Part shown: one piece after another, positions 5,218-28,812 of the stretch | Layout: every line of letters begins with the position of its first letter | How positions within the stretch are numbered: position 1 is the first letter of the stretch | Assembly (NCBI GenBank): GCA_000004985.1 | Contig: GG738848.1 | Source: Naegleria gruberi | Taxonomy: Eukaryota | Strand: one strand, 5' to 3' | Length of the DNA stretch: 64,000 bases | Notes under the pieces: model-generated | What the model was told of the DNA's origin: nothing | The model's database searches: none | The model's input: only the letters and a program-made list of their open reading frames with translations | Made by a program: the position numbers and the translations under genes

Positions 5218-5288
5218 TCGGGTGTGGTATAGTGGTAGCATTCCAGACTGTCACTCTGGCGACCCGGGTTCAATTCCCGGCACTCGAG
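5218..5288 (+). tRNA. tRNA-Asp (GTC)
   Basis: Begins with U1 (TCGGGTG/CACTCGA+G), as is typical of eukaryotic tRNA-Asp. D-arm GTATAGTGGTAGCAT. Anticodon stem CCAGA/TCTGG with loop CTGTCAC. T-arm CCGGGTTCAATTCCCGG. Confidence 0.85.
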
Positions 5289-5873: not shown

Positions 5874-5929
5874 TTAATCAAAATCCTTTCAATTTCCAAT
5901 CTTATATGTAAATAATAATAAATATGCAT

Positions 5930-8578: not shown

Positions 8579-8712
8579 TTTTTAATCTATTGTATTTGTT
8601 ACAAACCTTTCGAAAACAAAAAATCAACAGATTATTCAATTAATTACAAGGTCTAAAATAATTCACACATGATTTGTAATCATAAGTATTTATTATTTTA
8701 ACTTGATGTGAA

Positions 8713-8793
8713 GCGGTCTTGACCGAGTGGTTAAGGTGATTGACTAGAAATCAATTGGGGCGACCCGCACAGGTTCGAATCCTGTAGTCCGCG
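8713..8793 (+). tRNA. tRNA-Ser (AGA), type II with long variable arm
   Basis: D-arm ACCGAGTGGTTAAGGT. Anticodon stem ATTGA/TCAAT with loop CTAGAAA. Variable arm TGGGGCGACCCGCAC. T-arm ACAGGTTCGAATCCTGT. Acceptor GCGGTCT/AGTCCGC+G has one mismatch. T-rich tract downstream. Confidence 0.8.
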
Positions 8794-8895
8794 AAATTTT
8801 ACCTTTTTGTGATCTTAAAAATGAGTTCACATTTTCACCAATAACACACTTATACTTGCTAATTAGAAACAGTTTCTTCTTTTATTGCTATTGTT

Positions 8896-9789: not shown

Positions 9790-10307
9790 TGTTGCTTCTT
9801 TTTTTTAAACGATTCTTCTTCTTTCTAATAATTAACAAAAACTAATTGGACTCACCAATCAGACAGTACCACTTTCGAATAATAGGTAAAAAATAAAACC
9901 TACATAATTCATCCGTAGTAACACAACTTTGTGTGCGCAATTTTCACATGAACCACTGAAAAACAGAACAAAACTATTAATTAAACGTTTTTTTAATATT
10001 TTGATATTCTGAATATTTACACAATGAACCCAGTTAAACCGCATCCAAACGCTTAAATTCGATTTGACCCCTCAATCATAATTCTACTCATTTCAGACAT
10101 TGACTAAAGTGGACTAAGCGAAGAGAGATCTACATTATCTGAAATGCCAGATAACTGCACTTTTAACAAGCTAGCTCCAATTTAACAATTATGTACCATA
10201 TTAGCAAAGAGACATGAAACAAGTACCTTCTTAATTACTAAACTCGAATTCAAAATGAAGTACTAATTGGAACTATTTGTGCTTGTTTGCTTCAAATGGA
10301 ATTTGCT

Positions 10308-11519: not shown

Positions 11520-11964
11520 TTGAGTTTTGACTTTTTTTTTTTGATTATACAGAGATTGAACAGTTGATATCAGATTTCTTCTGTTTGACACCTATTGAAA
11601 TGTTTGATAAGAATGGATTGTTTCAGAAGCTAGTTTCTCAAAGATAAGACAGTTGACTTGACTTGACAAGAAATTCGCAAATGTTCATTCCCTTCGAACA
11701 AATGAAAGTTATGAAACATAGAAGAGTCCCCACCATTTAATACACGCATGCCATTTGAACATCATCATTGGTTCCCTTGTTACAACAATTTTCAAACCAT
11801 ACCTTCTATATTTAGTAACAAGTAATGAAATCAAAAAAAAAGAGACGTTAGATTTAATATTTTTATTGTTTAGTAGGTTCCAATTTTGAGTTTGGTTCAT
11901 AGGGGGAAGGAGGCATCAAAGATAATCAAATGGCGATATTGAAAAAACAAACAGAAAAAAAAAG

Positions 11965-13431: not shown

Positions 13432-13462
13432 AGATTTAGATAAATCCAAAATATCAAAACAA

Positions 13463-13550
13463 TCCGATGAGACGGAATCGAACCGCCGACCACAGGATGA
13501 CAGTTTTTCTTGCTACAGTCCCATGCTCTACCAGCTGAGCTATCATCGGT
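13463..13550 (-). tRNA. tRNA-Tyr (GTA) with a 14-nt intron
   Basis: Reverse complement reads CCGATGA TA GCTCAGCTGGTAGAGC A TGGGA CTGTAG[caagaaaaactgtc]A TCCTG ..GGCGGTTCGATTCCGTC TCATCGG A. The intron sits 3' of position 37, as in all eukaryotic tRNA-Tyr. Confidence 0.85.
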
Positions 13551-13696
13551 TACAGAAATTGAATCAATGAAAACTTTTTGTATTAATAAATTCCTAGGAG
13601 AAAGGATCTATCAGATGAAATCAAAAAAGTGAAAATAATGACACTGTTGAAAATATAGTGTTTACTCTTTCATCACCAAATGGCTTCCTTTTCCGG

Positions 13697-15469
13697 TCAT
13701 TCATTGCAAGAGTAATAATATCTGGAAATACTGAAGGTACCTAATGATGCTACATTATCATGGGAATCATAAAACTCTTTGATAGACCTGTGATCGGCAG
13801 CTTGAATGTCACCATTAGGTCTTGGGTCTGTATTTGTTTCAACCACCACATATTTCAATGTTTTTGATACTTGACTCAATCTAGATGTGAATTCAGTCAT
13901 ATTTAACCATCCATTTGTGTGTCTTGAATTGTAATCAAATACAATATCAATATTATACAGCTGTTTGAGAAAATCTATTTGATGAAATAGATATTCATTT
14001 TCATGAAATCCTGATAAGACCAGATATTTCAAGTTAGGCATAACTTTGCATGATAACATGGATTCTAAAATTGTTCTACTGGTTTTTCCTATTTTCATTA
14101 CTGATTCATTATCTCTATACCCATCATCATCTTCAACAACGATTCTCAAATATTTCACTCCTGGAAATGTACATCCATTGAAAAATGAACCCCACCTATT
14201 CTGAGGATGCTTACTGTATGCGCTTAAATTATTATATTCAATGGAAAGAAATCTGATATTTGAAGGGAATTCGAAATCTTTCAAAGGATCCAAATAAAGA
14301 AGATTGATTAAACTTAGGCATATTGATCCTAACAATCTTTCCTTCAATTCGTTTAGGTTAACAGTTTCGTCTATCTCCTTATTAGTTGATTCCTTTTCTT
14401 CATCAATTTGCAAATTTGTCTCAACGTTGTCTCCATTGGAAACTTGAGTAAAGTCTTCATTTTTCAGTAATAGTAATAGAGGTGAGGCCAAAAGAGAGTA
14501 AACGTTCCAATAGGAAAGTAAGGCAATTGTCAAAAGGCCGGCATACATTATTCCATCATTGCTTTGAATATTTCTTGATAGTTCTTTGGGATGCATTCCT
14601 GTGAATGGCATTTGTTTTTCAATATTCTTTACAAAATATTCCCAACCAATAGATGATTCAATTCTAATTCCAAGACTTTTTCCGCTCTGTTTCCTTCCAA
14701 TAACTACACTTTTAACCCTTGATGAGAATGACTTGATAGGCCAGTTCTCGACATGGTTTTCAGAAAGTAGGAAATTCTCTCCAACAGACCAATAGTCAGA
14801 CAAAGATTCTGTATGCATGTATTTGTACATTTCAAGTGAGAGCATTAGTGACTGTGTGAGAAACATTTCAAAAGCATGCTCCTTATTTTTGTAATATAGC
14901 TCATAATCCTCAAATGAAATGTTAAATCTATTCAATCTTGATTGAATCATCTCCTTACAAGCATCCTCATCACAATAATCATTCATATGCAATGGATCTG
15001 TAATAATACTGCTTATTGTATCAAAATCCAGTTTTTGACTTGTTTTTCCTCTCTCAATAGCTCCAATCATTACCTCAAGTCGAAGAGCTTCATCCATCTC
15101 AGTGGTATTCAAATCTCCTTGGCACAAATCCAAAGAATCAAAAGAGTTTGTTCTAATCCAGTACATGATTTTCTGATGAAAAACAAATCCTTTCAACCAA
15201 AACCTCTCAAAAGCCTCATCTCCATTCCCCACTATCATTTCCCTCAACCTTCTCGTAATGGATCCGAATCGGATCACTGATTTAATATTTTCAAAAGGTG
15301 GTATGTAATTTTCTACCTGACTAACCAATCTCATATCCACCCTATCATCATGTAACCTATCGAGATCACCAACCAGATACGAAATAATCTCCAAAATAAG
15401 TTCCTTCGGTATTGATTGAAAATTGTAAGTCGAATAATCTCTTTCTAAATATCTTTGATTTGATATCAT
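13697..15469 (-). CDS. F-box-like hypothetical protein
   Basis: N-terminal IPKELILEIISYLVGDLDRL is F-box-like. Long C-terminal region with LRR-like periodicity. ATG 15469 is preferred; the track ORF extends to 15523. Confidence 0.45.
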   Translation of the reverse strand: MISNQRYLERDYSTYNFQSIPKELILEIISYLVGDLDRLHDDRVDMRLVSQVENYIPPFENIKSVIRFGSITRRLREMIVGNGDEAFERFWLKGFVFHQKIMYWIRTNSFDSLDLCQGDLNTTEMDEALRLEVMIGAIERGKTSQKLDFDTISSIITDPLHMNDYCDEDACKEMIQSRLNRFNISFEDYELYYKNKEHAFEMFLTQSLMLSLEMYKYMHTESLSDYWSVGENFLLSENHVENWPIKSFSSRVKSVVIGRKQSGKSLGIRIESSIGWEYFVKNIEKQMPFTGMHPKELSRNIQSNDGIMYAGLLTIALLSYWNVYSLLASPLLLLLKNEDFTQVSNGDNVETNLQIDEEKESTNKEIDETVNLNELKERLLGSICLSLINLLYLDPLKDFEFPSNIRFLSIEYNNLSAYSKHPQNRWGSFFNGCTFPGVKYLRIVVEDDDGYRDNESVMKIGKTSRTILESMLSCKVMPNLKYLVLSGFHENEYLFHQIDFLKQLYNIDIVFDYNSRHTNGWLNMTEFTSRLSQVSKTLKYVVVETNTDPRPNGDIQAADHRSIKEFYDSHDNVASLGTFSISRYYYSCNE

Positions 15470-15620
15470 TTTTTTGAAATATTTAATTTTCTTTTTTTTT
15501 GTAAATATCAAAATTGCACACAAATCTCAAATATTGTTAAAACTCATTGAGTCAATTCTTCATCCCGATTTTTATAATCAATTATCGGGATTGAATGCTA
15601 ATCAGGTTCCAAAAAGAAAA

Positions 15621-16052
15621 ATGCCACCTTATTCCCTTCACGATAATCAAGTCTCTACCTCTTCATCATCAGAAAGGAGAAATATTGCTAGTATCGGAGT
15701 GTTGGAACATCGTGTTAATTGTATTATTGGAGTGAATCCAGAGGAGAGAGTCAATACACAAGATATTCTGATTGATATTGAAGTACAATATGATATTAGT
15801 CAAGCTGCTGCATCGGACAATGTTGTGGATACGTTCAGTTATGTGGATTTGAGAGATTTAGCAACAGAATTGGCTACTACGAGAAAGTACCAATTATTGG
15901 AAACTTTCTGTGTTGAATTCATTGATAGAGTTGAGAAGGATTACATCTCCAAGGGAGTCTTGAGTTGTTTTATCCAAATTAAAAAGCCAGAAGTGATGAA
16001 AACCACCAAATACCCATACGTTGCTCTGAAGAGAAATTTTGTCCAATTCTAA
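15621..16052 (+). CDS. folB: Dihydroneopterin aldolase (FolB family), stand-alone
   Basis: IGVNPEERVNTQDILIDIEVQYDISQAAASDNVVDTFSYVDL...LLETFCVEFIDRV...IQIKKPEVM is collinear with bacterial FolB (IGVYDWEQ..QKLVFDIEM..AAKSDDVADCLSYA..LVERVAEEVAELLL..IKLSKPGAV). ATG at 15621. Confidence 0.7.
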   Translation: MPPYSLHDNQVSTSSSSERRNIASIGVLEHRVNCIIGVNPEERVNTQDILIDIEVQYDISQAAASDNVVDTFSYVDLRDLATELATTRKYQLLETFCVEFIDRVEKDYISKGVLSCFIQIKKPEVMKTTKYPYVALKRNFVQF

Positions 16053-16423
16053 ATCATCATCTACTACTTTCAATGAACACAACAACATGACATTTGTTTT
16101 TGCCATCATGATGGTGATGACTTTTAAATAATATTGTTTGTGTAACGGCTAGTTTTTTAATTTTCTTCAATAACGTTCTTCAACAATACAAATGAATGCA
16201 TACGGAAGATTTAAATTCTCACTTTTTATTAAAATTACAATGTAATATATTTGTTGTTTTTGTTGTTGTTTTATACCTAGGGTCTATTCTCTCGCTCCAT
16301 TTGTAATATATTGAGAGAAAATTCAACTCTTCTCTCTCAAATATATTGAAAATAATAATAATACATAATAGTAGTAGTGGTAGCATATCATTATCATGCA
16401 ATATTTTCGATACGGATGATATT

Positions 16424-16963
16424 CTATTGAGAGGTAGTAGCAATAATACTTGTTCCATTGCTCAAATTGCTAAAGATTGGAATGTAAACAAGTGACAAGA
16501 CAAACAAGGCAACCATACAAATAGTAATGATAGAACCATTCAATACAAATGAAGCAAAGTTAAATCCAACACTGCCATTATTGTTTGATGATTGTTGTTG
16601 CTTCTTTTTCGAAGTGTTATTAGAATTACCTTCATTGCCAGTAGTAGATGAAGAAGAAGAAGTGAAAGAAGCCAAAACAATCCAAGCCAAACCAGTCAAG
16701 GCATGAAGTGCCAAACTTGCAAGATAATAAACCTTCAAATTCATGAGGAGTTTCCATTGAAAGAATTTGACGTGATTCAAACCGATTGTTCCCAGAAATG
16801 TGTGAACAAGTCCAAGGATGAAATGTTCTGAATAGAGTTCGTGGATAACTCTTGGATCATCGACTGCTGTTGCATATTTTGCTCGATCGAAACCTATCAG
16901 GAAGAAGGAAAGAAGAACACCTGAGGAGGCAAGGAGAAGGAGGTTAAGATCGAATTTTTGCAT
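16424..16963 (-). CDS. Small multi-pass membrane protein, hypothetical
   Basis: 179 aa from ATG 16963. Hydrophobic segments LLLASSGVLLSFFLIGF, HFILGLVHTFLGTIGL, YLASLALHALTGLAWIVLASF and IITICMVALFVLSLVYIPIF are separated by an S/N-rich loop. Confidence 0.4.
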   Translation of the reverse strand: MQKFDLNLLLLASSGVLLSFFLIGFDRAKYATAVDDPRVIHELYSEHFILGLVHTFLGTIGLNHVKFFQWKLLMNLKVYYLASLALHALTGLAWIVLASFTSSSSSTTGNEGNSNNTSKKKQQQSSNNNGSVGFNFASFVLNGSIITICMVALFVLSLVYIPIFSNLSNGTSIIATTSQ

Positions 16964-17318
16964 TTTTTTTAATGATGTGCTGCTTGTGTAAAACACGTCA
17001 GAAATCAACTTTTCCACATGTCAAACTTGTGTGAAGGCGGTTGAAATTTAGAAGTGAATTTCCTCAAGGTTGATTTTCAAAGAATAACAATTCCATAAAT
17101 ATGGGACTAAGGAACTCTTTTTTAGCGCATTTCCACCTTACTACAATTGTAATGCAAATGAAGTATCAGAATTGTAACATTTCCACATGTTTCATTTAAT
17201 GTTTTACAACAATTAGTCGGTCTCTCAACAAGGTGCGACCAATATGATAATTTGGCATGGTGACCATAATTTCCTAAGTACCTCAGTTGAGTTGACCCAT
17301 GTTGTAAATTGCAAAAGT

Positions 17319-18803
17319 TTACAGTTTGAAAATCTTATTGACATTTTCCCTTGTCTTGGTGAGATAGAAATCTGGATCTTTTGGACTATAGTCAAGGTAG
17401 GCAGATGCAATATTATCAAATTGGTCAGAGTTTGGATTATTAACGGTTATTGGGATGGCTGGCTCTATTTGGGTACCTTCATGCCATTCATTATAGGATG
17501 TTATGGTAATGTATTGAGGGAAATGCTTTAGATTGAGAACAGCATCAAACATTCTTTGATAATATTGACCATTCTCTCTTCCTTTGGTGTTTTGCTTGTT
17601 CCATGGTCTAATCTTTTCATCTATATAACCAGGTGCTATTGAGGGTATGAATAACAAGTTATTATTATGAGCCCATTCACTAATTTCCTGCCACTTTGAG
17701 CATGTAGACCCTTCTGTGAATTGATCTGCAGCGAAGTATGTATAAAACCCATCCATAAACGAATTCTTAATATTATCCCTCATTCCTGAATTTAAATATA
17801 GTCCAATAATTATAGAATCGTACTTTGTGTTTCTGATGGTGTCCTTTCCATTTGGTGATAGAATAGTTTTCCACTCTTCTGCTGATAAAATGTATGAATC
17901 ATACATATAAAATAATGGTTTTCCATTATGTCTAAAGAATGCCTTTGAATTTCCATACTTATCAATGACATATTTGATATCTCTCTTGACACTGGCAGCA
18001 TTTCTTCCTTTGTAAGGTTCCATATGGAAAATAACCTGCAATCCAGCTTCCTCAGCACATTCCATAAAGAATGGTGTTATCAATTCAGTATTGCTTCCAT
18101 TCTCATCAGCTTCTGAAACGCCCCACCAGCTCAATACTATAACATGCACATTGGCCTTATTTTTAATTTCCAAAAATTGTTCCATCACCACATCCTTATC
18201 AGTGGAAGAATATGCTCCTCTACTTGGATAGAAATTAGTTGCCAATTGTTTCAGTTTAGGATCATGTTCCTTTCCAACAAGATGTTTATATTGTTCATTT
18301 GTACTTGCAGTCCAGTGAGGTAAAACTTTGTGATTCCAATGTTCATACTTTTTATCATGTTTCTCATTCTTATACCATGCATAGTAAAAGATGTGAGCAA
18401 AGGGATGAAAATTATTTCCTCCACTATTTGATTGTGTTACATTGGATGGTAAAGTTTTATCGGATGATGAATTTTCTTCCAATTGATTATTATTATTGTC
18501 AATATTACTACGTCCTGAATTTAATTTCATATTATTATTGTTCTGATGATGATTATCCAAATTACTCGTTAATGATTCAATAATTTCCTTTGCAGAGTGA
18601 TGACGAAGAGAAACCAACGAATGTTGATACAATGAAAAGATTAAAAACAAGAGAAATCCAGCCAAGACTGTATACCACAGAAATCTTCTCTTACCAAAAA
18701 ACAAACTCGGAATGAATGTACTTCTTCCCTTGGATGATGATGAAGATGTTGTAGAATAAGAAGGGGCAATAGGAGAATCAAAGGCGACTTCTTCAATGCC
18801 CAT
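17319..18803 (-). CDS. Glycoprotein endo-alpha-1,2-mannosidase (GH99), type II membrane protein
   Basis: HIFYYAWYKNEKHDKKYEHWNHKVLPHW, VIVLSWWG, FHMEPY and ITSYNEWHEGTQIEP are diagnostic of GH99. N-terminal signal-anchor FLWYTVLAGFLLFLIFSLY. ATG 18803; the track ORF starts at an upstream TTG. Confidence 0.75.
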   Translation of the reverse strand: MGIEEVAFDSPIAPSYSTTSSSSSKGRSTFIPSLFFGKRRFLWYTVLAGFLLFLIFSLYQHSLVSLRHHSAKEIIESLTSNLDNHHQNNNNMKLNSGRSNIDNNNNQLEENSSSDKTLPSNVTQSNSGGNNFHPFAHIFYYAWYKNEKHDKKYEHWNHKVLPHWTASTNEQYKHLVGKEHDPKLKQLATNFYPSRGAYSSTDKDVVMEQFLEIKNKANVHVIVLSWWGVSEADENGSNTELITPFFMECAEEAGLQVIFHMEPYKGRNAASVKRDIKYVIDKYGNSKAFFRHNGKPLFYMYDSYILSAEEWKTILSPNGKDTIRNTKYDSIIIGLYLNSGMRDNIKNSFMDGFYTYFAADQFTEGSTCSKWQEISEWAHNNNLLFIPSIAPGYIDEKIRPWNKQNTKGRENGQYYQRMFDAVLNLKHFPQYITITSYNEWHEGTQIEPAIPITVNNPNSDQFDNIASAYLDYSPKDPDFYLTKTRENVNKIFKL

Positions 18804-19113
18804 AGAATTAAATTGTTGCAATTTTTTGATCTGATTTCAAGTCCTTCTCCTCCGAAGAAACACGTGTTCGTTGATAAAGAGTTGAATAATTCTTCTTGCA
18901 CGATAATGTGCCTATTCACTAGGGAAGAAGCAACATTTTCTTATTGAGAAAATTTGATGTTGAAAAGTGTGGCGCCTTAATTTTACTTCTTAAAAAAAAT
19001 ACAAATTCTTCATCATACCACTCGTTCTTAAGAGTTACTCCCGAGAGCAGTTGCTGTTGTTTTTAAAGATTTGATCAACAAATTTTGTACTTTAAATTGT
19101 ATAATAGAGAGAA

Positions 19114-19845
19114 ATGAATATGCAACCGGGTGTTCCTTTTCCTAATAACAATTATAATGCTATGAGGCCTCAATCATCTGGAAATGTTCAACCAAACACT
19201 TTTAATTATCATCCAAACATGATGAATACTCCTTTAAATTTACAGAATAATCAGGTTCTCCCAGAATCGATAACGTATCAATTAATGGAAATGATAAATT
19301 CAGCAATATTCCAACTTCAACAACAATCCCAGAGTCCTCAATTCATAATGCCATCTCCATCAGTGCAGAATCCACCTGTTCCACAACCATCAAATGTACA
19401 CACATCACTAAATGATGCTTCAATAGCCCTCACTGAAGATGTGGAATATCTCTATCAAGAGTTTGAGAAAATTCAAAAACAACATGCAAAACAAAAGGAA
19501 GTCAACAAATCTGTGGAATTTATTGTTAGGGAGAAGTATCAAACACACAAAAAGGAGGAAAGAGAAAAGAAATTGAAAAAGGAGATTGCACAGAAATATC
19601 AGAATCCATCGAATAGGCAACATAGTGCTGCAATTAAAATACAAAGGTGGTTCAGACAAGAATTATCGAAAAAGAAGGATAAGAAAATAACTACTTTAAA
19701 ACGAGAAGTCGACATGTTGAAATACCAGGTTCAAAGATTACAAATAGATCAAAAAACAACGTTACAATTGGTTAGATTGCTATTTGAGCAGGTGCAATTA
19801 CTTACAAGAGAAGTTAGGGAGAGGGATAGTAGCGAAGATCAGTAA
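19114..19845 (+). CDS. IQ-motif coiled-coil hypothetical protein
   Basis: N/Q/P-rich N-terminus. IQ motif AAIKIQRWFRQELSKKK. C-terminal heptad-like coiled coil. Confidence 0.45.
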   Translation: MNMQPGVPFPNNNYNAMRPQSSGNVQPNTFNYHPNMMNTPLNLQNNQVLPESITYQLMEMINSAIFQLQQQSQSPQFIMPSPSVQNPPVPQPSNVHTSLNDASIALTEDVEYLYQEFEKIQKQHAKQKEVNKSVEFIVREKYQTHKKEEREKKLKKEIAQKYQNPSNRQHSAAIKIQRWFRQELSKKKDKKITTLKREVDMLKYQVQRLQIDQKTTLQLVRLLFEQVQLLTREVRERDSSEDQ

Positions 19846-19995
19846 CTTTGGAAGGATTTTTGAAAAGTTAACTTAACATTTCTAATTAACTTGAAATAAA
19901 TCTCTTCCACATGGAATTGGTAGATTTCCACTTGTGTATAAGCAGGTAACTGACAACCAGATCATTTACTTTCATTGTTTTTTGAGATTCTCATA

Positions 19996-20041
19996 TGACC
20001 AAACCAGTTGACCAAAAAACATGGACTGTTGACCAAAAAAA
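19996..20041 (+). promoter_or_regulatory. Direct repeats of GTTGACCAAAAAA (W-box-like TTGACC cores) immediately 5' of the 20042 ATG
   Basis: tgaccaaacc / aGTTGACCAAAAAAc / tGTTGACCAAAAAAAA occur within 46 bp and end at the start codon. Confidence 0.3.
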
Positions 20042-21856
20042 ATGTCAAGACAACTAGTTGAACTTCCCACCGATATTCTTTCCAATATTTTTGTATTTCT
20101 CTGTGATGATCAAGGTGAAAATAATTTAAATTCCATATTTGCACTCCTCCGAACATGTAAAACATTTCGATATGTGATAAGGAATGATAATTATCAATTG
20201 TGGGGATTTTTCACGTTCAATTTTCCGTTTTTCAATAGAAAAATTGTGGATGGAAGATGGATGAGAAAAGTCAGTGATGAGCCACTTGAAGAGGTTAGCT
20301 TGATGATTTATGAAAAGTTTATGAAATTTGTAGAGTTGCTTTGTGGAGATTCGAAAATGGTTGGACGATTGGATGTCACATTGTTTGGCAAGGAAGATTG
20401 TGGATGGTTGGTGAGGAGTATTGAGAGGGATTTTGTAAATTTAAAAACGTTAACAGTGAAAACGAATATCGAAAAAATTATTCAACATGATTTGAGATTT
20501 CCATATTTGCAAGAATTGATATTGCAATGTCGGTGGCCATTGTTAATTTCAAATCATGAATCAACTTTGAGAAGAATAGAAATTTATTATAGTGAAAGTA
20601 TTTCTAGATTGTGTGAAATTTGCAATTTTCCTAAATTACAATCAATTAAGGCTCCTTGTCGTAATCGATTGAAATCAGGAGATTGTGATCCAATTCTTGA
20701 AAAATTGGAATACTACACTGCAAGTTCCATAGATCTGCTTCCTAAACTTGTAGCAGCCAAGAAATTCTCCATTTCTTGTGATTGCCTCATTCTGAAACAA
20801 AATGAACTGATCAAAAACTTGACAATATTGAATATTGAATGTGAAGTAACGGAACTATGTAATATTAATTTTCAAAATTTGAAATATTTTAGCTTCATTG
20901 TGAAGAAGTTTTCAATTGAAAATGTTAAATTTCCAAAATTAACTAATCTTGATGTAAAATTGGATGACTATGAGAAATTATTTGAAATTATACCGTGTCA
21001 TCAGATTTGTGACCTTTCATTTGATGGAAATTCAGCCAAGGTCATTCATCTCAAAGAAGATAAGTGGAAGTCATTGAGGAATATTCAACTTATGTATGTT
21101 CTAGATGGCAGCTCAATTGAGTTTAGTAGCTTGCATTTTGTAACCACAAGTGGAAGTAACGTTATATTTAGAGGTACTAAGAAATCACCTCTCCTCATTG
21201 ACGCTCTATTTGTAACTTCAATTGATGAAATAATTATTGAAGAGAAGGGAGAGTTACTACAAGTTAATTATTTAGTATTAGACTATTCCTATCATTTATA
21301 CACATTGAGAGACAAAATTTCAAAGATTGACGATCTATATATTAGCTATGGGTATTATTACACGGTTAACTCGGACTTCATGGCCATAGACATGATTAGC
21401 ATGTATTCACTCTGTCCTGATATTCGTACAGGCGGAAAGAAATTGAGAAATATGAATATTGAACTGTCTTGCAATTTCACAATTTCACTACATGGATTGC
21501 ACATCCCATATGAACCTACCTATCCTCTGTTGTCGACCCTTACACTGTTGGAGCTCACTGGATGCCTTATTGAGGAATTGGATTTATCTTTATTACCAAA
21601 ACTAGAAAATTTTTCTATTAGCGATTCCACTTTAAATAATTTTATAATAGCAAAATCAGAGAATTGTCATGAATCTCTAAAATATTGCTACATTTACAAG
21701 TTGAATAATATAAGAATCAAATTGCATTTAAACGCTCCTAATTTAAAGGTGTTTATAGTTTGTGATTGTGCGAATTTGAATTCTGATAATTGTGAAATTG
21801 AGTTGGTAAACTCTCCATGTTTAAGCCTGTCCTGTTTACCCAAATTTCTTCTTTAG
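20042..21856 (+). CDS. F-box-like hypothetical protein
   Basis: LPTDILSNIFVFLCDD...LLRTCKTFRYVI is F-box-like. 604 aa, single exon. A8 directly before the ATG. Confidence 0.5.
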   Translation: MSRQLVELPTDILSNIFVFLCDDQGENNLNSIFALLRTCKTFRYVIRNDNYQLWGFFTFNFPFFNRKIVDGRWMRKVSDEPLEEVSLMIYEKFMKFVELLCGDSKMVGRLDVTLFGKEDCGWLVRSIERDFVNLKTLTVKTNIEKIIQHDLRFPYLQELILQCRWPLLISNHESTLRRIEIYYSESISRLCEICNFPKLQSIKAPCRNRLKSGDCDPILEKLEYYTASSIDLLPKLVAAKKFSISCDCLILKQNELIKNLTILNIECEVTELCNINFQNLKYFSFIVKKFSIENVKFPKLTNLDVKLDDYEKLFEIIPCHQICDLSFDGNSAKVIHLKEDKWKSLRNIQLMYVLDGSSIEFSSLHFVTTSGSNVIFRGTKKSPLLIDALFVTSIDEIIIEEKGELLQVNYLVLDYSYHLYTLRDKISKIDDLYISYGYYYTVNSDFMAIDMISMYSLCPDIRTGGKKLRNMNIELSCNFTISLHGLHIPYEPTYPLLSTLTLLELTGCLIEELDLSLLPKLENFSISDSTLNNFIIAKSENCHESLKYCYIYKLNNIRIKLHLNAPNLKVFIVCDCANLNSDNCEIELVNSPCLSLSCLPKFLL

Positions 21857-21913
21857 AGTGAAGAATTTATTTACCTTAATTCAAAACCACATTCCTTAGC
21901 ACCTTAACAAGAA

Positions 21914-21984
21914 GCGTCGATGGTTTAGTGGTAGAATACGGCGTTGCCATCGCCGTGACCCGGGTTCAATTCCCGGTCGACGCA
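21914..21984 (+). tRNA. tRNA-Gly (GCC)
   Basis: GCGTCGA TG GTTTAGTGGTAGAAT A CGGCG TTGCCAT CGCCG TGAC CCGGGTTCAATTCCCGG TCGACGC A. T-run follows. Confidence 0.85.
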
Positions 21985-22214
21985 GCAATTTCTTTTTGAT
22001 TTCATAGTCTTACATTTTCTATTTATCCACTTTTTACCACTGAAACTAGAAATTCATTACTGTCTGTGGTCCAAAAATCACGACTCCAAACACAATACCT
22101 ATCAAGAACGAGCCCACAGTTTTAACTCATTTTTTTTAATTTTTTATTTTTAAAATTCTCCAAATTTATTCTATTACAAAATTTTAAAGAGTTTGGACAA
22201 ACAAAATAATAATT

Positions 22215-23708
22215 TTAATAAAATGTGAAAACTTCAATCTTTTTAACTTCAAAATCAGTTAATTGATCATCAGGTATATTAAATGCACCGTTGTTCATAG
22301 TGGCATACAGATTGTTGGTCGTTGGATTTCTCAATACTGATATTCCACCCAAATCAATAACTTCATCAGCATTTTGCGAATACAGTTTGTGAGGACAAGA
22401 TATTGGATTTTTGATGGTATGTATTTGAAATTCATCAAACAAAATGTCAAATATAAAGTCATACTTGTAATGTTGAGGAGTTCCCTTAGACTTTACGTAG
22501 GCACAAAGAAGAGCTCCATATTTTTTCTCATCGTTTGTTTGAATAATCACAAGTGTTGGATTTTGAGTAAAGAAATAAATGAGAGATTTAGGTGTGGTTA
22601 GAGGAGAAGTTATTGAGCACCCCAAATTCCAAGTACCCGTCTTTAAGAAGGGCATATTCTTCTTGGCAATAAATGATCCCAACACTAATTGTTCCTCTGG
22701 TTCTAAAATAGTACAAAAATCAATAAATAATCCAGGGAGTTGAGAATAGATGGATTGAAGTGAAAGAACGTTGGCTATTTCAGCAAGTCCAAATTTAAAT
22801 GATGCTGGTTTGGATAGAATAGAGCTTGGAACTATTCCAGTATTGATAAAATCCACAATTGGTTTGACATATTCCTCAGGAACTGCATCGAAAATTACTG
22901 GTATTCCTCTCTTATTAACCTTAACTGTAAAGCCCTCTGATGGATCAGCAACTTGTGAGAAGAGTGCAGATCCAGATTCTTTCATTTTTTCAATATTCAA
23001 TGTAACTAGCTTGGAACCTAGCATGCATTGCATATCCTCATCATGCATCTCATTTGATACTTGATGCATTGGAGTATTATCATTACTGCTTGATGCATTG
23101 GCAACAGTTCTAGATGAGGAAGCTGCTTCTTTTTGAGCTCGTCTTGTGGCTTGTTTTTCCAAGGTTGCTTGCTGTTGTTTTTGTAATTTAAGTTTAGCTT
23201 TTTCTTGATTGGTGAGCTTTCTTTCAGGTTGAGAACTCGTTTCATTTGAGATTGGTTCAGATGACACACTTGTCGAGTCACTGTCTGCCACATTTGTAGA
23301 GTTTCCTCCTTCGATCATCACATGATCTGAAACTTCATCCATCATGCTTGTTAATCTTTCATTAGGTTTCGCCTTCTTTTGTTTGTTTCCTTGAAGATTT
23401 GCACTCTTACGAGAACCTTTTGATACAACAGAAACCTTCTCAAAATTATGATTATCCAAATCCACATCCACAATCAATAATTCCAATCCGAAATATTCAG
23501 CAACACATTTCAATCCCAATTTTGAATGATTCATATCGGAAATGTATTTTCCATAAACAATCCAATATGATAATACCTGTAAAACATCTTTGGAACAATT
23601 TATAAAGTATTCATCTCTTTCCAGGGCATTCCAAAAATCTGGATGAGAGTCTGTCTTCCTTCTGATGGTTAATTCACCATCAAAACATTTGATCAAGTGG
23701 AGAGACAT
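22215..23708 (-). CDS. BTB/T1-like plus TLDc domain protein
   Basis: The C-terminal PTLVIIQTNDEKKYGALLCAYVK...YDFIFDI...EVKKIEVFTF fits the TLDc (TBC/LysM-associated) fold. The N-terminal LHLIKCFDGELTIRRKT...DEYFINCSKDVLQVLSYWIVYGK is BTB/T1-like. ATG 23708 (A7 context) is preferred over 23801. Confidence 0.55.
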   Translation of the reverse strand: MSLHLIKCFDGELTIRRKTDSHPDFWNALERDEYFINCSKDVLQVLSYWIVYGKYISDMNHSKLGLKCVAEYFGLELLIVDVDLDNHNFEKVSVVSKGSRKSANLQGNKQKKAKPNERLTSMMDEVSDHVMIEGGNSTNVADSDSTSVSSEPISNETSSQPERKLTNQEKAKLKLQKQQQATLEKQATRRAQKEAASSSRTVANASSSNDNTPMHQVSNEMHDEDMQCMLGSKLVTLNIEKMKESGSALFSQVADPSEGFTVKVNKRGIPVIFDAVPEEYVKPIVDFINTGIVPSSILSKPASFKFGLAEIANVLSLQSIYSQLPGLFIDFCTILEPEEQLVLGSFIAKKNMPFLKTGTWNLGCSITSPLTTPKSLIYFFTQNPTLVIIQTNDEKKYGALLCAYVKSKGTPQHYKYDFIFDILFDEFQIHTIKNPISCPHKLYSQNADEVIDLGGISVLRNPTTNNLYATMNNGAFNIPDDQLTDFEVKKIEVFTFY

Positions 23709-23868
23709 TTTTTTTAATGAGATTGATTGTAAATTTGTTGCCGTAATCCATAAATAAAGAATTGAATCATATGCAAGGTTCACCAGGAAACATAGGTGCA
23801 ACCATCTAAAATATCTGGTTGCAGAAATATTAAGGTAATATTGAGAATATTTTCATTCTGAATAAGAT

Positions 23869-23940
23869 TCCCGTGTAGTCCAATGGCTAGGATACCTGGC
23901 TTTCACCCAGGAGGTCCGGGTTCAATTCCCGGCATGGGAG
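23869..23940 (+). tRNA. tRNA-Glu (TTC)
   Basis: TCCCGTG TA GTCCAATGGCTAGGAT A CCTGG CTTTCAC CCAGG AGGT CCGGGTTCAATTCCCGG CATGGGA G. It lies 68 bp upstream of the start codon of the 22215..23708 gene. Confidence 0.85.
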
Positions 23941-24054
23941 AATAGTTTTGTTTTAATTTTCAATATCAGGAAAAGATAAAATGGTTTTTTTATTGGATTG
24001 TTCAACAACATTCACTAAGCCACATAAATTTCAACAAAATGACCAGGTCAAAAA

Positions 24055-24172
24055 GACTACAGCACCACAGGTTCCCAAGTTGTCTCCAACCTCAGTACTG
24101 ATGTGGCTCTACGATGCTTAACTTCTCAAATCGGACGGGATGAGGTGCATTCATAGTGATATGGCCGTAGCC
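24055..24172 (-). rRNA. 5S ribosomal RNA gene (chromosomal copy)
   Basis: Reverse complement reads GGCTACGGCCATATCACTATGAATGCACCTCATCCCGTCCGATTTGAGAAGTTAAGCATCGTAGAGCCACATCAGTACTGAGGTTGGAGACAACTTGGGAACCTGTGGTGCTGTAGTC, followed by TTTTT. Helix I (GGCTACGGC/GCTGTAGTC), loop C (CCCGTCCGATTTG), GAAGTTAAGC and AGTACT...GGAGAC...TGGGAA are all conserved. About 118 nt. Confidence 0.8.
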
Positions 24173-25512
24173 ATCCACTATCTTATAGTTATGATTAATA
24201 AGCGATTTCTTTTACAGTAACGTTGGAGGTACTCACATAAAGTCAATTCATTTGAAAATAAATCAACAATTTCAATTTTCCTTACAAACTTTTCAATTTA
24301 TTCTACTGCAACTTGGTTGTGAGTACGAACCACTTGTAAATTATTCAAAGCGAGTTTAATGAAAATTGTTTGTTATCAAGGAACAGACACACAACAATCC
24401 CAATATGAGATTCATTTCCACCAATGTCACATAATGAACCTCAACAATATGCACTCATCAGAACATATCTCTAATAAACAAGTTGACTGTGAACAACAAC
24501 ATGACCTCACTCAATTATAATTTAATTAAAAAAGCAAAATTCTACTCAATTTGAAAGAAATACAAAAGAACTAATAGATGAAGAGATTCTTTGAAGAATC
24601 TTTGAAATGTAGATTGTAGATAAAGAGGTGACCTGATGGAGGTTTGCTTTCTATTCTCAGAAGACATACTCAAATATCATAATTGGGATGCAGAACTCTT
24701 ATAGGAAGTATGATAATCTTCATAGTAATCGTTCCTGAGAAGTGTTCTTCATCAATTCTTTCATTCAAAATTTTAGCATTATCTCGTCTATCAAAAGAAA
24801 TGTTAGATCCTAAATAATGCCAGACATTTGACACTGTTAAATATTTTGTAAAGTATTTTTAGAATTGATAACAAAGACGGGTGATACAACTTTCAAATTA
24901 CAATTTTATTTCCAATTATCATTGCCTACAACCCTTCCTTTTCCACTCCATTTTACTTTTTCCAATAAATACTCAACAACCTGACCATGAATCACTACCA
25001 CTCAAAAACACAAACATAAAAAAAAGCCAAAGCCTTTTGTGCAGCAGCGCCGATAGGAAACACCACACTGAGAATCTTAATAGACATCAACGAGTATCAT
25101 CTCCACCTTGTTATTGTTCATCTCTTGCCAGACAACCATCATCAGCCACTCACCCTTTATTAATTAATTTGATTATTATCCATTTCAGATCAAGGACAAC
25201 CATTGAGTGGAGAACAAATACATCAGCAACAGCACAACACAAATATTGTTCATTGCAGCATTGAGAACTTTGCTTTCATCTAAATTTAAAAACAAATAAC
25301 TGAAAAGCAATAACTGAAAGAGAATCCAGTATTCATCATCAACAACAATACACCAGTGAACACGACGATAGTAGTAGTTAGAAAACAAACTCATTGAAAA
25401 AACAAAACTCATTCTCTTCAATATTAGTAGTATTAATTATAGTAGTATCAAACTCTTCTTGGCCATCTCAAACATTATATTCAATCCAATCAAATAGTAA
25501 CACTTCAACAAC

Positions 25513-25890
25513 ATGTCTAGTAATATTACCATGCATCCACTCCTCAATGATATGTCCAGATCAAGATCAAGATCCTCACCTGCTACAATGATTGGAAATA
25601 GACAATCTCTCTCAAATATTGATAGCACAACAGCCACAACTCCATTCTCCTATCATAAGGATCTTCAAAAGACACCTTCCGTACTCTCTGATTTGATTCA
25701 AAACCAAACCGTTGATGGTAAGAAGGAATTGGATTTTCCAACTCTCTTCTTAATGAAGAAGATGAAACAAAAGGTTGAACAAGTTGGTTTGTCTCCAAGA
25801 AATAGAAGCCAAAGTTTAATCACCATGATGAAACATTCAGGCCAACCAATGCTCTCCTCTGGTGGTAGTAATGAAGATCATTCTCGATAA
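25513..25890 (+). CDS. Small S/T-rich hypothetical protein (125 aa)
   Basis: ATG-initiated ORF after about 1.3 kb of ORF-free A/C-rich sequence. SRSRSRSS tract. Its PTLFLMKKMKQK resembles the DFLMKRLQK segment of ENSA/ARPP-19, but the FDSGDY core is absent, so no family is assigned. Confidence 0.3.
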   Translation: MSSNITMHPLLNDMSRSRSRSSPATMIGNRQSLSNIDSTTATTPFSYHKDLQKTPSVLSDLIQNQTVDGKKELDFPTLFLMKKMKQKVEQVGLSPRNRSQSLITMMKHSGQPMLSSGGSNEDHSR

Positions 25891-26424
25891 ATGTACTACA
25901 CAATTTATCAGATTTTCAAGAGTGTTTTGATAGGATATTGAGAATCTGGATAGTGTCTCTCTATCCTTTCAAAATGACTGCACACACCAATTATAACATT
26001 TAATACCGAGTCAATACATACGAGCAACAAACCTTCTAACCTGTTAATAGGGCACAAACATATTCGATGCCTTTTGTACATTAGCTGAATCTTTCGATTC
26101 TTGTATTATTATTTCTCAAATCTTCTAACTGTGTAAAATAAACGTAATATCAAACCGGTTTAGGGACTTTTGTAATTGAATCATTCCAATATAAGACACT
26201 TTAACGAAAATTGAGTCAACCTCCACCACTTATTCACCACTCAATTTTCGAGATAGGCTAATTTTAAAAATGCACGAGGCTGTTATCCTTTCTGGAACTG
26301 CTCTATTTAAAGAATAGTACCACTCCTATTTGTTATGGAAAAATCAATCCATATTGCTCCATCCAGGGTATATTGTCATTGTATCCGCATTGGACCACTT
26401 CACTTCTCATTAGCAACGTAATAA

Positions 26425-26500
26425 TTGAATGATTTGGAGATTTCAATGAATCGTATATTCACATCTACATGATTTATTCAAAAATCTCCAAATCATTCAA
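26425..26500. repeat. Perfect 19-bp inverted repeat (hairpin with 38-nt loop), about 200 bp upstream of the histidine-kinase ATG
   Basis: TTGAATGATTTGGAGATTT (about 26425-26443) and its exact reverse complement AAATCTCCAAATCATTCAA (about 26482-26500). Positions +/-1. Confidence 0.6.
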
Positions 26501-26703
26501 TTTCCTTGTTCGATTCATTTCAACCAAAGTTGAACACATCTCTCAAGAATCTTTTAAGATTTTTGCTTGAATTCCTTATTGCTTATTTTCTTCCTTAAAC
26601 AAGTCGTTGAGAAGTGTTTGGCGCTTTGTCCATAAGCACTTTTTTAGCAACCGGTCCGATCCTACAAGCGCGAAATGATTAACACGACAAGAAGAATAAA
26701 AAA

Positions 26704-28812
26704 ATGACTCAACATCACTGTGATTCTGTACTATCCACATCGTCACCCATATCATCCTCATTCTCTTCTGTGGAGTCTCTTGCCGGCAAGGAATTGGAAA
26801 ATCATTCTTCCTCCAGTGTTGGTGTTGGTGCCGAATCAGATATTCAATATAATAATAACCAACAAGTACAACATGAATCATTGTCTAATAACATGCATCC
26901 AAATCATCATCATAATACCACAACTACCACTAGTAATGTCGACGAGCCAATACATAGACCATCACTGAGGAAAAATAGTACAACGGACGAATTTTTTCTA
27001 CCACTTTCATATATTCACTTTTCAGGTTCTTCGAGTATACCTGATTATTGGAAACCATTCATGTCATTACAAAGCTTTTTATTGGTGGGAATTGTTTATT
27101 TTGCTTACTTTTTGAATATATTATACTGTTTTCATAGTGGTGGAATGACTAATGGACTGTTGATGTTGCTGGTGAATGCATCAACAGTGGGTGTTAATTT
27201 TTATTGGTTTTTCTATACTGTGAATCCAAATGTGAAAGTTTTGATTTTCAATTTATTAATGTTTACATGCAGATTTTCACTAGTTCATAACAAAATGATG
27301 GTTCTGCCCAGTGTCTTTTCAACAATAACTACAACTTCAAAGGGAAGTTTAAATAGTCCTTTTAAAGCATTCTTTCCAATAGTATACACATGTGCTCATT
27401 ATTTTATTTGGGGTATGGCAAAGTATGAATTTAACTTGATGGACATGGATTCACTGTTAGAGTTTTTATTTCATTATGGAACTTTGATAATTTCCGCATT
27501 GCTTTTTGGAATTTATAATTTATACTTGATGATTCAGTTATCATCAGAGTGTAAGGCAATGAAGGAGGCAACTAGAAAAATTCAAACAGCACTCGATGTT
27601 AAATCAGATTTCCTCAGTCACATCACTCACGAGTTTAGAGTCCCTTGTTTATCAAGTTTGGGTTCGATATCACTGCTTAAGGAAACTGAATTGGCACCAC
27701 AACAATTGGATTTCATTGCCACTATAGAATCTGCCAACAACATTTTGTTATCACTTATTGAGGACATTTTACTTTTTGCCAAGACAGAACATGATGTAAA
27801 TCATCCACCTAAGGAAACCAGCTACATATCTTTCAGCTTGTTCAACTCCATCAATTCACTCTACTCTCTCACAAAGGGCTATGCCACCAACTTTAAAGTG
27901 GATGTGAAATTTTACATTGATAAGAATATTCAAAATATGAAAGTTTTCTTCAATCACACCAAATTGCAGCAGTGCCTATCCAATCTTCTCACAAATGCCA
28001 TCAAGGCCTCAAAACCAAACGATACAGTGCAATTAAAATGTGAAATCCTAGGCAATGGCCAAAATGAGGGAGAAACCATTTTCCAATTCCAAGTTATTGA
28101 TCATGGAATTGGTATTCCTAAAGAAAGACAAAAAGATTTATTCGTTCCATTTGCTCAATTGCATCAAATCAATGAAGATTTGGTTCCTAGCTCTGGACTC
28201 GGATTGGTAACATGTCTCAATATTGTAAAATCCGTGAATGGAACAATTGATCTATTTTCTGAGAATGGAACAACAATATTTACTGTACAAATTCCAATGA
28301 AAGCTAGCAATATCGAACAAGAAGATATACTTAACTTTTTTGAAGAACCATCCAAACTGAATACTTCTCTCAAGAGACAACTACAAGTTCACACAGATTA
28401 TCTGTACAGAATGGAACAAGATAAGAAAATTTTAACAAACAGAGAATCTAATCCTAATAGCTCCTTACCAAAAATTATCCTAGCAGAAGACAATTTTGTC
28501 AACAGAAAAGTCCTCATTAAATTATTCGAAAGTTTGGGGCAGAGTTTAGATTCTGTGCGAGATGGAAAGGAATTAGTTGATTCATTCAAACCTGAACAAC
28601 ACAAATTAATTATCACCGATATGCACATGCCTATCCTTAATGGTTTAGAAGCATCCAAAGTTATCAGAGAAAAACATCCCAATTCAAAAATTGTAATGAT
28701 TACAGCTGATGCTCTAATTAATATTTCTTCCTATTTGGAAGTTGTTGATAAAGTTATCAGCAAACCTTGCAGCAAGGATGATTTGAAGAAAGTAATTAGT
28801 GAGTATCTCTAA
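26704..28812 (+). CDS. Hybrid sensor histidine kinase (multi-TM N-terminus, HisKA, HATPase_c, receiver)
   Basis: N-terminal hydrophobic segments (FLLVGIVYFAYFLNILY, LLMLLVNASTVGVNFYWFFY, ...). H-box SDFLSHITHEFRVP. N/G boxes LLTNAIKAS...IDHGIGIP...SGLGLVTCLNIV. Receiver ILAEDNFVNRKV...ITDMHMPILNG...K. 702 aa, single exon. Confidence 0.85.
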   Translation: MTQHHCDSVLSTSSPISSSFSSVESLAGKELENHSSSSVGVGAESDIQYNNNQQVQHESLSNNMHPNHHHNTTTTTSNVDEPIHRPSLRKNSTTDEFFLPLSYIHFSGSSSIPDYWKPFMSLQSFLLVGIVYFAYFLNILYCFHSGGMTNGLLMLLVNASTVGVNFYWFFYTVNPNVKVLIFNLLMFTCRFSLVHNKMMVLPSVFSTITTTSKGSLNSPFKAFFPIVYTCAHYFIWGMAKYEFNLMDMDSLLEFLFHYGTLIISALLFGIYNLYLMIQLSSECKAMKEATRKIQTALDVKSDFLSHITHEFRVPCLSSLGSISLLKETELAPQQLDFIATIESANNILLSLIEDILLFAKTEHDVNHPPKETSYISFSLFNSINSLYSLTKGYATNFKVDVKFYIDKNIQNMKVFFNHTKLQQCLSNLLTNAIKASKPNDTVQLKCEILGNGQNEGETIFQFQVIDHGIGIPKERQKDLFVPFAQLHQINEDLVPSSGLGLVTCLNIVKSVNGTIDLFSENGTTIFTVQIPMKASNIEQEDILNFFEEPSKLNTSLKRQLQVHTDYLYRMEQDKKILTNRESNPNSSLPKIILAEDNFVNRKVLIKLFESLGQSLDSVRDGKELVDSFKPEQHKLIITDMHMPILNGLEASKVIREKHPNSKIVMITADALINISSYLEVVDKVISKPCSKDDLKKVISEYL

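What the first reader, a model, noticed from the sequence alone, without database searches (positions are those of the whole stretch)
23869..24172. Chromosomal 5S rRNA gene about 110 bp from tRNA-Glu
A complete 5S rRNA gene with all universal helices and a T5 terminator sits on the minus strand 114 bp downstream of tRNA-Glu(TTC). The window carries seven tRNA genes in total. In D. discoideum the 5S genes reside on the extrachromosomal rDNA palindrome, so a dispersed chromosomal 5S copy linked to tRNA genes points to a different Pol III gene organisation in this species. It could also be a hotspot for Pol III-targeted retroelements.
Basis: partly seen in the sequence, partly recalled or inferred. 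Interest (0 to 1): 0.5.

Follow-up and report, generated by a model that had tools for sequence, protein, structure and literature searches.

The report
Ordinary dispersed Naegleria 5S rRNA gene
This is a real, intact 5S ribosomal RNA gene lying tail-to-tail with a tRNA-Glu gene, but the DNA comes from the amoeboflagellate Naegleria gruberi, where hundreds of scattered chromosomal 5S genes were already catalogued in 2012, so it is ordinary.

Summary
A full-length 5S rRNA gene (Rfam RF00001, 102.4 bits, gathering score 38) sits at 24054-24172 on the minus strand. It ends in a T5 run and lies 113 bp from tRNA-Glu(TTC) at 23869-23940 (+). The window has seven tRNA genes.

The interpretation does not hold. 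Two flanking proteins are 100% identical to Naegleria gruberi proteins on a 712,659-bp scaffold, so this is a heterolobosean, not a dictyostelid.

In Naegleria the 18S/5.8S/28S genes sit on a circular extrachromosomal element whose listed content has no 5S gene. Feng et al. 2012 (PMC3369914) listed 279 putative chromosomal 5S genes on more than 100 scaffolds, not linked to rDNA, with an internal control region and a TATA box.

The tRNA and the 5S gene are convergent, and each has its own terminator, so they are not a dicistronic unit. None of 15 other 5S loci I fetched has a tRNA within the DNA recovered next to the 5S gene. About 1.4 such close pairs are expected genome-wide by chance.

I found no retroelement domains or repeats in the flanks.

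One point stays open. This copy has a U18·C60 mismatch and A63, where its closest relatives have G18-C60 and C63. I could not tell whether that is species-wide or specific to this copy.

Verdict: already known, low interest.

The parts
24054..24172 (-). 5S rRNA gene, 119 nt
   Evidence: Rfam RF00001, 102.4 bits, full model. 33 of 34 consensus pairs are standard. 93% identical to the N. fowleri 5S gene in L005.
24050..24054 (-). T5 run, the Pol III terminator; its first T is the last base of the Rfam match
   Evidence: Read directly from the sequence. Of the 12 related 5S genes compared, 11 are followed at once by 3-5 T, which with the gene's final T makes a run of 4-6; L019 has its T run a few bases downstream.
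24109..24123 (-). Box A of the internal control region (5S positions +50 to +64, AGTTAAGCATCGTAG)
   Evidence: Exact match to the box A pattern used in PMC3369914, found only at +50. Positions 50-57 are invariant in 10 related 5S genes. Position 63 is A here and C in the other nine.
24076..24093 (-). Box C-like element (5S positions +80 to +97, GAGGTTGGAGACAACTTG)
   Evidence: 16 of 18 positions match the consensus NNGRTGGGNGWCCNYNNG. Identical in N. fowleri L005 and metagenome L011.
24194..24201 (-). Upstream TATA-like element TTATTAAT at -29 to -22; a second one, TATAAG, lies at -15 to -10 (24182-24187)
   Evidence: 10 of 13 related 5S loci have a run of at least 6 A/T bases starting between -30 and -17, which is only mild enrichment in AT-rich DNA. 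PMC3369914 reports a TATA box for N. gruberi 5S genes.
23941..24053 (.). 113-bp AT-rich spacer between the two convergent Pol III genes
   Evidence: No Rfam match in an E-value search of this region.
23869..23940 (+). tRNA-Glu(TTC), with its own T4 terminator at 23946-23949
   Evidence: Rfam RF00005, 67 bits; ARAGORN; the spacer begins AATAGTTTTG.
22215..23708 (-). Flanking protein gene NAEGRDRAFT_78144 (hypothetical, 497 aa); its start codon lies 160 bp from tRNA-Glu
   Evidence: 100% identical to the N. gruberi protein P0058. No Pfam domain.
26704..28812 (+). Flanking hybrid histidine kinase gene (HisKA, HATPase_c, Response_reg), 2.5 kb from the 5S 5' end and divergent from it
   Evidence: 100% identical to the N. 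gruberi protein P0001. Pfam domains.

Best explanation
This is one ordinary member of the large, dispersed family of chromosomal 5S rRNA genes of Naegleria gruberi.

Shown: the gene is a self-contained unit with a box A at +50 to +64, a box C-like element at +80 to +97 and a T5 run at its 3' end.

Inferred from established knowledge of type 1 Pol III genes: RNA polymerase III transcribes it on its own from that internal control region, probably helped by an upstream TATA-like element near -29 to -22, and terminates in the T5 run.

The neighbouring tRNA-Glu gene is a separate Pol III unit on the opposite strand with its own T-run terminator. The two simply share an intergenic gap at the edge of a tRNA-rich 20-kb stretch.

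The 5S genes are chromosomal because the extrachromosomal circular rDNA element of Naegleria is described as encoding only 18S, 5.8S and 28S.
For: Organism: (two flanking proteins 100% identical to N. gruberi proteins, 712,659-bp contig).

Gene integrity: 102.4 bits, full length; 33 of 34 pairs standard; box A exact, box C 16 of 18, TATA-like elements at -29 and -15, T5 run.

Structure under selection in the family: (98.2% of cells paired, 13 pairs with compensatory changes, 0 of 500 shuffles reach the observed value, and partners slid by 1-3 columns collapse to 28-42% paired).

A close homolog, equally intact, in N. fowleri: (102.6 bits).

Prior knowledge: PMC3369914 lists 279 putative 5S genes on more than 100 scaffolds, 'located with rDNA units: N', with an internal control region and a TATA box. 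PMC5805870 describes the extrachromosomal element as encoding 5.8S, 18S and 28S. PMC6831594 places 5S rRNAs on the N. fowleri nuclear genome.

Independence from the tRNA: opposite strands and separate terminators. No tRNA was found in the DNA recovered around 15 other 5S loci. The chance expectation is 1.4 pairs this close genome-wide, using 279 5S genes, 924 tRNA genes (PMC2888827) and an assumed genome size of about 41 Mb (from my own knowledge).
Against: Expression of this particular copy is not shown.

It has one non-standard pair, U18·C60, where N. fowleri and the closest metagenomic relative L011 have G18-C60. It also has A63 where the nine other aligned 5S genes have C63. It could therefore be a slightly deviant copy.

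PMC3369914 found no TFIIIA in N. gruberi, so the textbook route of TFIIIA binding to box C is an assumption here.

The upstream TATA-like signal is weak statistically.
Confidence: 0.88

Rival explanations
1. This copy is a silent or decaying pseudogene among the many N. gruberi 5S copies.
For: It has a U18·C60 mismatch in helix II, and it is the only one of 10 aligned 5S genes with A63. PMC3369914 Table S1 contains many truncated or divergent entries.
Against: It is full length, with a bit score equal to the N. fowleri gene (102.4 against 102.6). Box A matches the published pattern, and position 63 falls on an N position of that pattern. The box C region is identical to N. fowleri and L011. 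The T5 terminator and a TATA-like element are present. Single unpaired cells also occur in other copies in the alignment.
Confidence: 0.08
2. The tRNA-Glu/5S pair is a functional Pol III module. It could be a co-transcribed unit as in Yarrowia, or the 5S gene could borrow TFIIIC/TFIIIB recruited by the tRNA gene in an organism without a recognisable TFIIIA. It could also be part of an organised Pol III cluster, as in Leishmania major.
For: The two genes are only 113 bp apart. Eight Pol III genes lie within about 20 kb of the window, and seven tRNA genes in 64 kb has Poisson P of about 7e-4, tested post hoc. TFIIIA was not found in N. gruberi (PMC3369914). In L. major, all 11 5S genes are associated with tRNA genes (PMC2695483).
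Against: The genes are on opposite strands and convergent, each with its own T run, so co-transcription is impossible. No tRNA was found in the DNA recovered around the N. fowleri 5S gene (L005, 22 kb) or around 13 metagenomic 5S genes of the same type. In Willaertia the nearest tRNA is 6.5 kb away. The 554 bp upstream of the 49%-identical homolog of the adjacent gene in another Naegleria-like assembly holds no tRNA or 5S gene. About 1.4 pairs this close are expected by chance.
Confidence: 0.04
3. One reading: a dictyostelid species in which 5S genes have left the rDNA palindrome, creating a hotspot for Pol III-targeted retroelements.
For: The AT-rich, gene-dense sequence superficially resembles a dictyostelid genome.
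Against: The flanking proteins are 100% identical to N. gruberi proteins, and the next-best hits are N. fowleri, N. lovaniensis and Willaertia. No reverse transcriptase, integrase or other Pfam domains were found in ORFs of the flanks. There are no repeated DNA families near the locus.
Confidence: 0

Closest known systems
Dispersed chromosomal 5S rRNA genes of Naegleria gruberi (Feng et al. 2012, PMC3369914; 279 putative copies)
   Same: Same organism. Single copies of about 117-119 nt scattered among protein-coding genes, not linked to rDNA, with an internal control region, an upstream TATA-like box and a T-run terminator. This gene is almost certainly one of the 279 listed.
   Different: Nothing substantive. 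The paper's Table 1 says the genes are in 'tandem arrangement', but its own coordinates show solitary copies and loose clusters 1-5 kb apart, and this copy is solitary within 64 kb. I could not map the window onto a named JGI scaffold.
Leishmania major Pol III gene clusters (Padilla-Mejia et al. 2009, PMC2695483)
   Same: A 5S gene lies a short distance (mean 202 bp in L. major) from tRNA genes, on either strand, within a cluster interspersed with protein-coding genes. Both organisms belong to Discoba.
   Different: In L. major all 11 5S genes are associated with tRNA genes. In the Naegleria-type sample here, 15 of 15 other 5S loci have no tRNA in the DNA recovered next to the 5S gene.
Yarrowia lipolytica dicistronic tRNA-5S genes (Acker et al. 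2008, PMC2566860)
   Same: Dispersed 5S genes sit next to tRNA genes in an organism where the requirement for TFIIIA is in question.
   Different: In Yarrowia the 5S gene lies directly 3' of the tRNA on the same strand and is co-transcribed with it. Here the genes are convergent, 113 bp apart, each with its own terminator.
Dictyostelium discoideum 5S genes on the extrachromosomal rDNA palindrome
   Same: Both organisms keep their large rRNA genes on a multicopy extrachromosomal element.
   Different: The Naegleria element is a 14-kb circle described as encoding 18S, 5.8S and 28S only (PMC5805870), so its 5S genes are chromosomal. The two organisms are unrelated (Discoba and Amoebozoa).

Membership tests
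Eukaryotic 5S rRNA (Rfam RF00001) | Full-length match to the covariance model above the gathering score | tested here: met
   102.4 bits against 38, model positions 1-120, not truncated.
Eukaryotic 5S rRNA (Rfam RF00001) | Three-way junction with helices I-V formed by standard pairs, supported by covariation among relatives | tested here: met
   33 of 34 pairs are standard in this copy. Across 10 related genes, 98.2% of cells are paired and 13 pairs show compensatory changes; slid controls give 28-42% paired.
Type 1 Pol III gene (internal control region plus T-run terminator) | Box A at about +50 to +64 | tested here: met
   Unique match to the pattern NSYYAANCNNNNNNN at +50.
Type 1 Pol III gene (internal control region plus T-run terminator) | Box C at about +80 to +97 | tested here: inconclusive
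   16 of 18 positions match a vertebrate-derived consensus. The element is identical in N. fowleri and L011. Binding was not tested.
Type 1 Pol III gene (internal control region plus T-run terminator) | Intermediate element at about +67 to +72 | tested here: inconclusive
   The pattern SNNRRN is too degenerate: it gives 10 hits in the gene, none at +67.
Type 1 Pol III gene (internal control region plus T-run terminator) | Run of at least 4 T at the 3' end | tested here: met
   T5 at 24050-24054 on the minus strand.
Type 1 Pol III gene (internal control region plus T-run terminator) | TFIIIA-dependent transcription, and actual expression of this copy | not testable with these tools
   PMC3369914 reports that TFIIIA was not found in N. 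gruberi while TFIIIB and TFIIIC were. No expression data are available here.
rDNA-linked 5S gene (D. discoideum palindrome, S. cerevisiae rDNA unit) | 5S gene lies within a unit that carries 18S/5.8S/28S | tested here: not met
   No SSU or LSU rRNA match in the 64-kb window. The flanks are protein-coding genes of a 712,659-bp scaffold.
Dicistronic tRNA-5S gene (Yarrowia type) | 5S gene directly 3' of a tRNA on the same strand, with no terminator between them | tested here: not met
   The genes are on opposite strands and convergent, and the tRNA-Glu is followed by TTTT at 23946-23949.
Tandem 5S rDNA array | Head-to-tail repeats of gene plus spacer | tested here: not met
   A single 5S gene in 64 kb. 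No direct repeats at the locus.
Obligate 5S-tRNA cluster (Leishmania major type) | 5S genes consistently associated with tRNA genes | tested here: not met
   True for this copy, but none of 15 other Naegleria-type 5S loci has a tRNA next to the 5S gene in the DNA recovered. The N. gruberi genome itself was not available for a full count.

The most novel reading that the evidence does not exclude
The 20-kb stretch holding seven tRNA genes plus this 5S gene could be an organised Pol III domain, as in Leishmania. It might act as a TFIIIC-rich chromatin hub. In an organism with no recognisable TFIIIA, some 5S copies might then benefit from Pol III factors recruited by neighbouring tRNA genes.
Probability: 0.05. 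Interest if true: 0.35.

Novelty: already known. Interest (0 to 1): 0.08.

Why it matters
It matters little. The locus illustrates a published fact: in Naegleria the 5S genes are dispersed on the chromosomes, while 18S, 5.8S and 28S sit on a circular extrachromosomal element.

Two small points are useful. [quoted passage not shown] Second, how Naegleria transcribes 5S genes without a detectable TFIIIA is still open, but that question concerns the whole genome, not this locus.

Tried and rejected
1. Looking up N. gruberi proteins with the look-up of encoding contigs to get the annotated scaffold and other 5S copies. The N. gruberi genome is not in that index, and the best N. fowleri homolog, P0003, is not either.

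2. A first metagenome scan with a pattern that fixed helix residues found nothing, because the pattern was too narrow. A second scan with the invariant 32-mer gave 13 contigs. The same 32-mer found nothing in viral contigs or genome contigs.

3. A literal sequence search of the paper library for the N. gruberi 5S sequence gave no hits. Clark & Cross 1987 (PMC367933) is not held.

4. Synteny. The N. lovaniensis and N. fowleri tandem histidine kinase loci (L001, L004) have no 5S or tRNA gene. L002, which holds a homolog of the gene next to tRNA-Glu, has neither in its 554 bp of upstream sequence. A 5S gene lies upstream of histidine kinase paralogs in N. fowleri L005 and Willaertia L006, but orthology is ambiguous (31-38% identity to every paralog). 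My own estimate for the coincidence is P about 0.06, so I do not claim conservation.

5. Retroelement remnants. Pfam scans of all ORFs of at least 50 aa between 24.3 and 26.9 kb, and of the neighbouring genes, found nothing relevant. A repeat search of the whole window found only the similarity between tRNA T-arms. A low-threshold Rfam search of 20-28 kb added only sub-threshold hairpin hits.

6. I first read T18/A63 as a compensatory pair. Covariation among the metagenomic copies shows that position 18 pairs with position 60, so I rejected that reading.

7. The bacterial promoter and terminator scan is not informative for a eukaryotic Pol III gene.

Full report
**Observation**

Rfam cmscan of the whole window finds one 5S rRNA gene at 24054-24172 on the minus strand. 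It scores 102.4 bits against a gathering score of 38, with E = 2.7e-21, and covers model positions 1-120. The same scan finds seven tRNA genes.

tRNA-Glu(TTC) lies at 23869-23940 on the plus strand. The two genes are 113 bp apart and convergent, with their 3' ends facing each other.

The 5S gene ends in a T5 run, which is plus-strand aaaaa at 24050-24054. The tRNA-Glu is followed by its own TTTT at 23946-23949.

Mapping the Rfam consensus structure onto the 119-nt sequence gives 33 standard pairs out of 34. No other 5S sequence is present in the window, and no 18S or 28S gene either.

**Organism**

The window has 29-37% G+C and is densely packed with long ORFs.

The hybrid histidine kinase encoded at 26704-28812 is 100% identical to an NCBI Naegleria gruberi protein on a 712,659-bp contig. 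Its next-best hits come from N. fowleri, N. lovaniensis and Willaertia magna. The ORF next to tRNA-Glu (22215-23708, minus strand) is 100% identical to NAEGRDRAFT_78144 on the same contig.

The DNA is therefore nuclear chromosomal N. gruberi (Heterolobosea, Discoba).

**What is already known**

Naegleria carries single copies of the 5.8S, 18S and 28S genes on 3,000-5,000 copies of a circular extrachromosomal element. In strain EGB this element is 14,007 bp, and no 5S gene is listed on it (PMC5805870).

Feng et al. 2012 (PMC3369914) searched the N. gruberi genome by BLASTn and found 279 potential 5S genes. Their Table 1 records 'located with rDNA units: N', an internal control region, a TATA box, TFIIIB and TFIIIC present, and TFIIIA not found. 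Their Table S1 places the copies on more than 100 scaffolds. Most are solitary, and some form loose clusters 1-5 kb apart.

For N. fowleri, Liechti et al. 2019 report 5S rRNAs on the nuclear genome (PMC6831594).

[quoted passage not shown] A chromosomal 5S gene in this species is thus a published, expected feature.

**Anatomy and likely mechanism**

- Box A: the pattern used by Feng et al. matches uniquely at +50 to +64.
- Box C: the best match is at +80 to +97, with 16 of 18 positions.
- Upstream: TTATTAAT lies at -29 to -22 and TATAAG at -15 to -10.
- Terminator: the T5 run described above.

I infer, but have not shown, that this is an autonomous type 1 Pol III unit. The inference rests on textbook knowledge of 5S genes and on the TFIIIB/TFIIIC inventory in PMC3369914.

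Support for the upstream element is modest. Ten of 13 related 5S loci have a run of at least 6 A/T bases starting between -30 and -17, but the background is AT-rich and the position-specific AT profile is only slightly raised.

**Comparison with related 5S genes**

I fetched Naegleria-family loci through homologs of the flanking proteins.

- N. fowleri L005 holds a 5S gene 93% identical to this one, scoring 102.6 bits.
- Willaertia magna L006 holds a 5S gene split by an insert.
- A scan of metagenome contigs with the 32-nt core shared by these three genes returned 13 contigs, each with a single 5S gene in unique flanks. The organisms behind these contigs are unknown. L011 differs from the window copy at only 3 positions.

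An alignment of 10 of these genes supports the canonical fold strongly. In it, 98.2% of cells are paired and 13 pairs show changes on both sides. None of 500 shuffles reaches the observed values, and sliding the partners by 1-3 columns drops pairing to 28-42%.

Within that alignment the window copy is the only one with a non-standard pair at positions 18-60. It has U·C, where N. fowleri and L011 have G-C. It is also the only one with A at position 63, where the other nine have C. Position 63 falls on an unconstrained N position of the box A pattern. The box C region is identical to N. fowleri and L011.

I could not obtain any other N. gruberi copy. Whether T18/A63 is species-wide or specific to this copy therefore remains open. 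This leaves a small probability that the copy is a variant or a pseudogene.

**Is the tRNA linkage meaningful?**

Co-transcription as in Yarrowia (PMC2566860) is excluded by the orientation and by the separate terminators.

Recurrence was tested in 15 other 5S loci:

- N. fowleri L005: no tRNA in 22 kb.
- Willaertia L006: the nearest tRNA (Phe) is 6.5 kb away.
- The 13 metagenomic contigs: no tRNA at all. These contigs are short, 1.0-6.8 kb.

A Naegleria-like Logan contig carries a 49%-identical homolog of NAEGRDRAFT_78144, and its 554 bp of upstream sequence holds no tRNA or 5S gene.

I calculated the chance expectation with 279 5S genes, 924 tRNA genes (PMC2888827) and a genome of about 41 Mb (my own knowledge). 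Uniform placement predicts about 1.4 5S-tRNA pairs this close genome-wide. The number would be higher if placement were restricted to intergenic DNA. One such pair is therefore unremarkable.

The window is tRNA-rich. Seven tRNA genes lie between 4.4 and 23.9 kb, against 1.4 expected per 64 kb (post hoc Poisson P about 7e-4). This resembles the Pol III clusters of Leishmania major, where all 11 5S genes sit with tRNA genes (PMC2695483). The rule does not hold in the Naegleria-type sample.

**Retroelement hotspot?**

No Pfam domain of any mobile-element protein occurs in the ORFs of the 2.5-kb gap between the 5S gene and the histidine kinase, or in the neighbouring genes. No repeat family touches the locus. 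A permissive Rfam search of 20-28 kb adds only sub-threshold hits on a hairpin at 26.4 kb. The idea is not supported at this locus.

**Verdict**

The gene is real and intact, the species attribution was wrong, and the organisation is already published. Novelty: already known. Interest: low.

Noticed in passing
window 4394-23941: All seven tRNA genes plus the 5S gene lie in the first ~24 kb, and none lies in the remaining 40 kb. They are Leu-AAG with an 11-nt intron, Gln-TTG, Asp-GTC, Ser-AGA, Tyr-GTA with a 14-nt intron on the minus strand, Gly-GCC and Glu-TTC. Together they form a loose Pol III-rich domain interspersed with protein-coding genes. About 1.4 tRNA genes are expected per 64 kb (post hoc Poisson P about 7e-4).
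   Followed up: partly
window 26423-26502: A perfect inverted repeat with arms of about 21 bp (ATTGAATGATTTGGAGATTT...AAATCTCCAAATCATTCAAT) lies about 200 bp upstream of the histidine kinase start codon. The DNA fold is -20.9 kcal/mol with z = -6.4. It gives only sub-threshold hits to miRNA-precursor families. Its function is unknown.
   Followed up: partly
L006 6788-7054 (Willaertia magna JBEGDK010000119.1), minus strand: A 5S gene is interrupted after about nt 72 by an insert of roughly 150 bp. The insert contains a poly(A) run of about 50 nt and a T13 run, and it is flanked by a duplicated AGGGCTAC. This looks like a poly(A) retroposon with a target-site duplication inside a Pol III gene, or a long-read homopolymer artefact.
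   Followed up: partly
window 24054-28812; L005 2769-12152; L006 6788-12532: In N. gruberi, N. fowleri and Willaertia magna, a 5S gene lies upstream of and divergent from a hybrid histidine kinase paralog, at 2.5, 7.1 and 2.9 kb respectively. Orthology of the kinases is ambiguous (31-38% identity to all paralogs). By my own rough estimate the coincidence has P of about 0.06.
   Followed up: partly
window 24155 and 24110 (5S positions 18 and 63): This 5S copy has T18, giving a U·C mismatch with C60, and A63. N. fowleri and the closest metagenomic Naegleria copy have G18 and C63. It is unknown whether this is the N. gruberi consensus or a copy-specific variant.
   Followed up: partly
literature (PMC5805870 against PMC3369914 and PMC6831594): [quoted passage not shown] That holds only for 18S, 5.8S and 28S, because the 5S genes are nuclear. 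Separately, Table 1 of PMC3369914 calls the N. gruberi 5S genes 'tandem', whereas its own Table S1 coordinates show dispersed copies and loose clusters.
   Followed up: yes
L003 1407-1841 (Logan SRR19745161 contig): The 3' part of this short contig matches the histidine kinase in inverted orientation relative to the 5' part. It is probably a fold-back assembly artefact.
   Followed up: no
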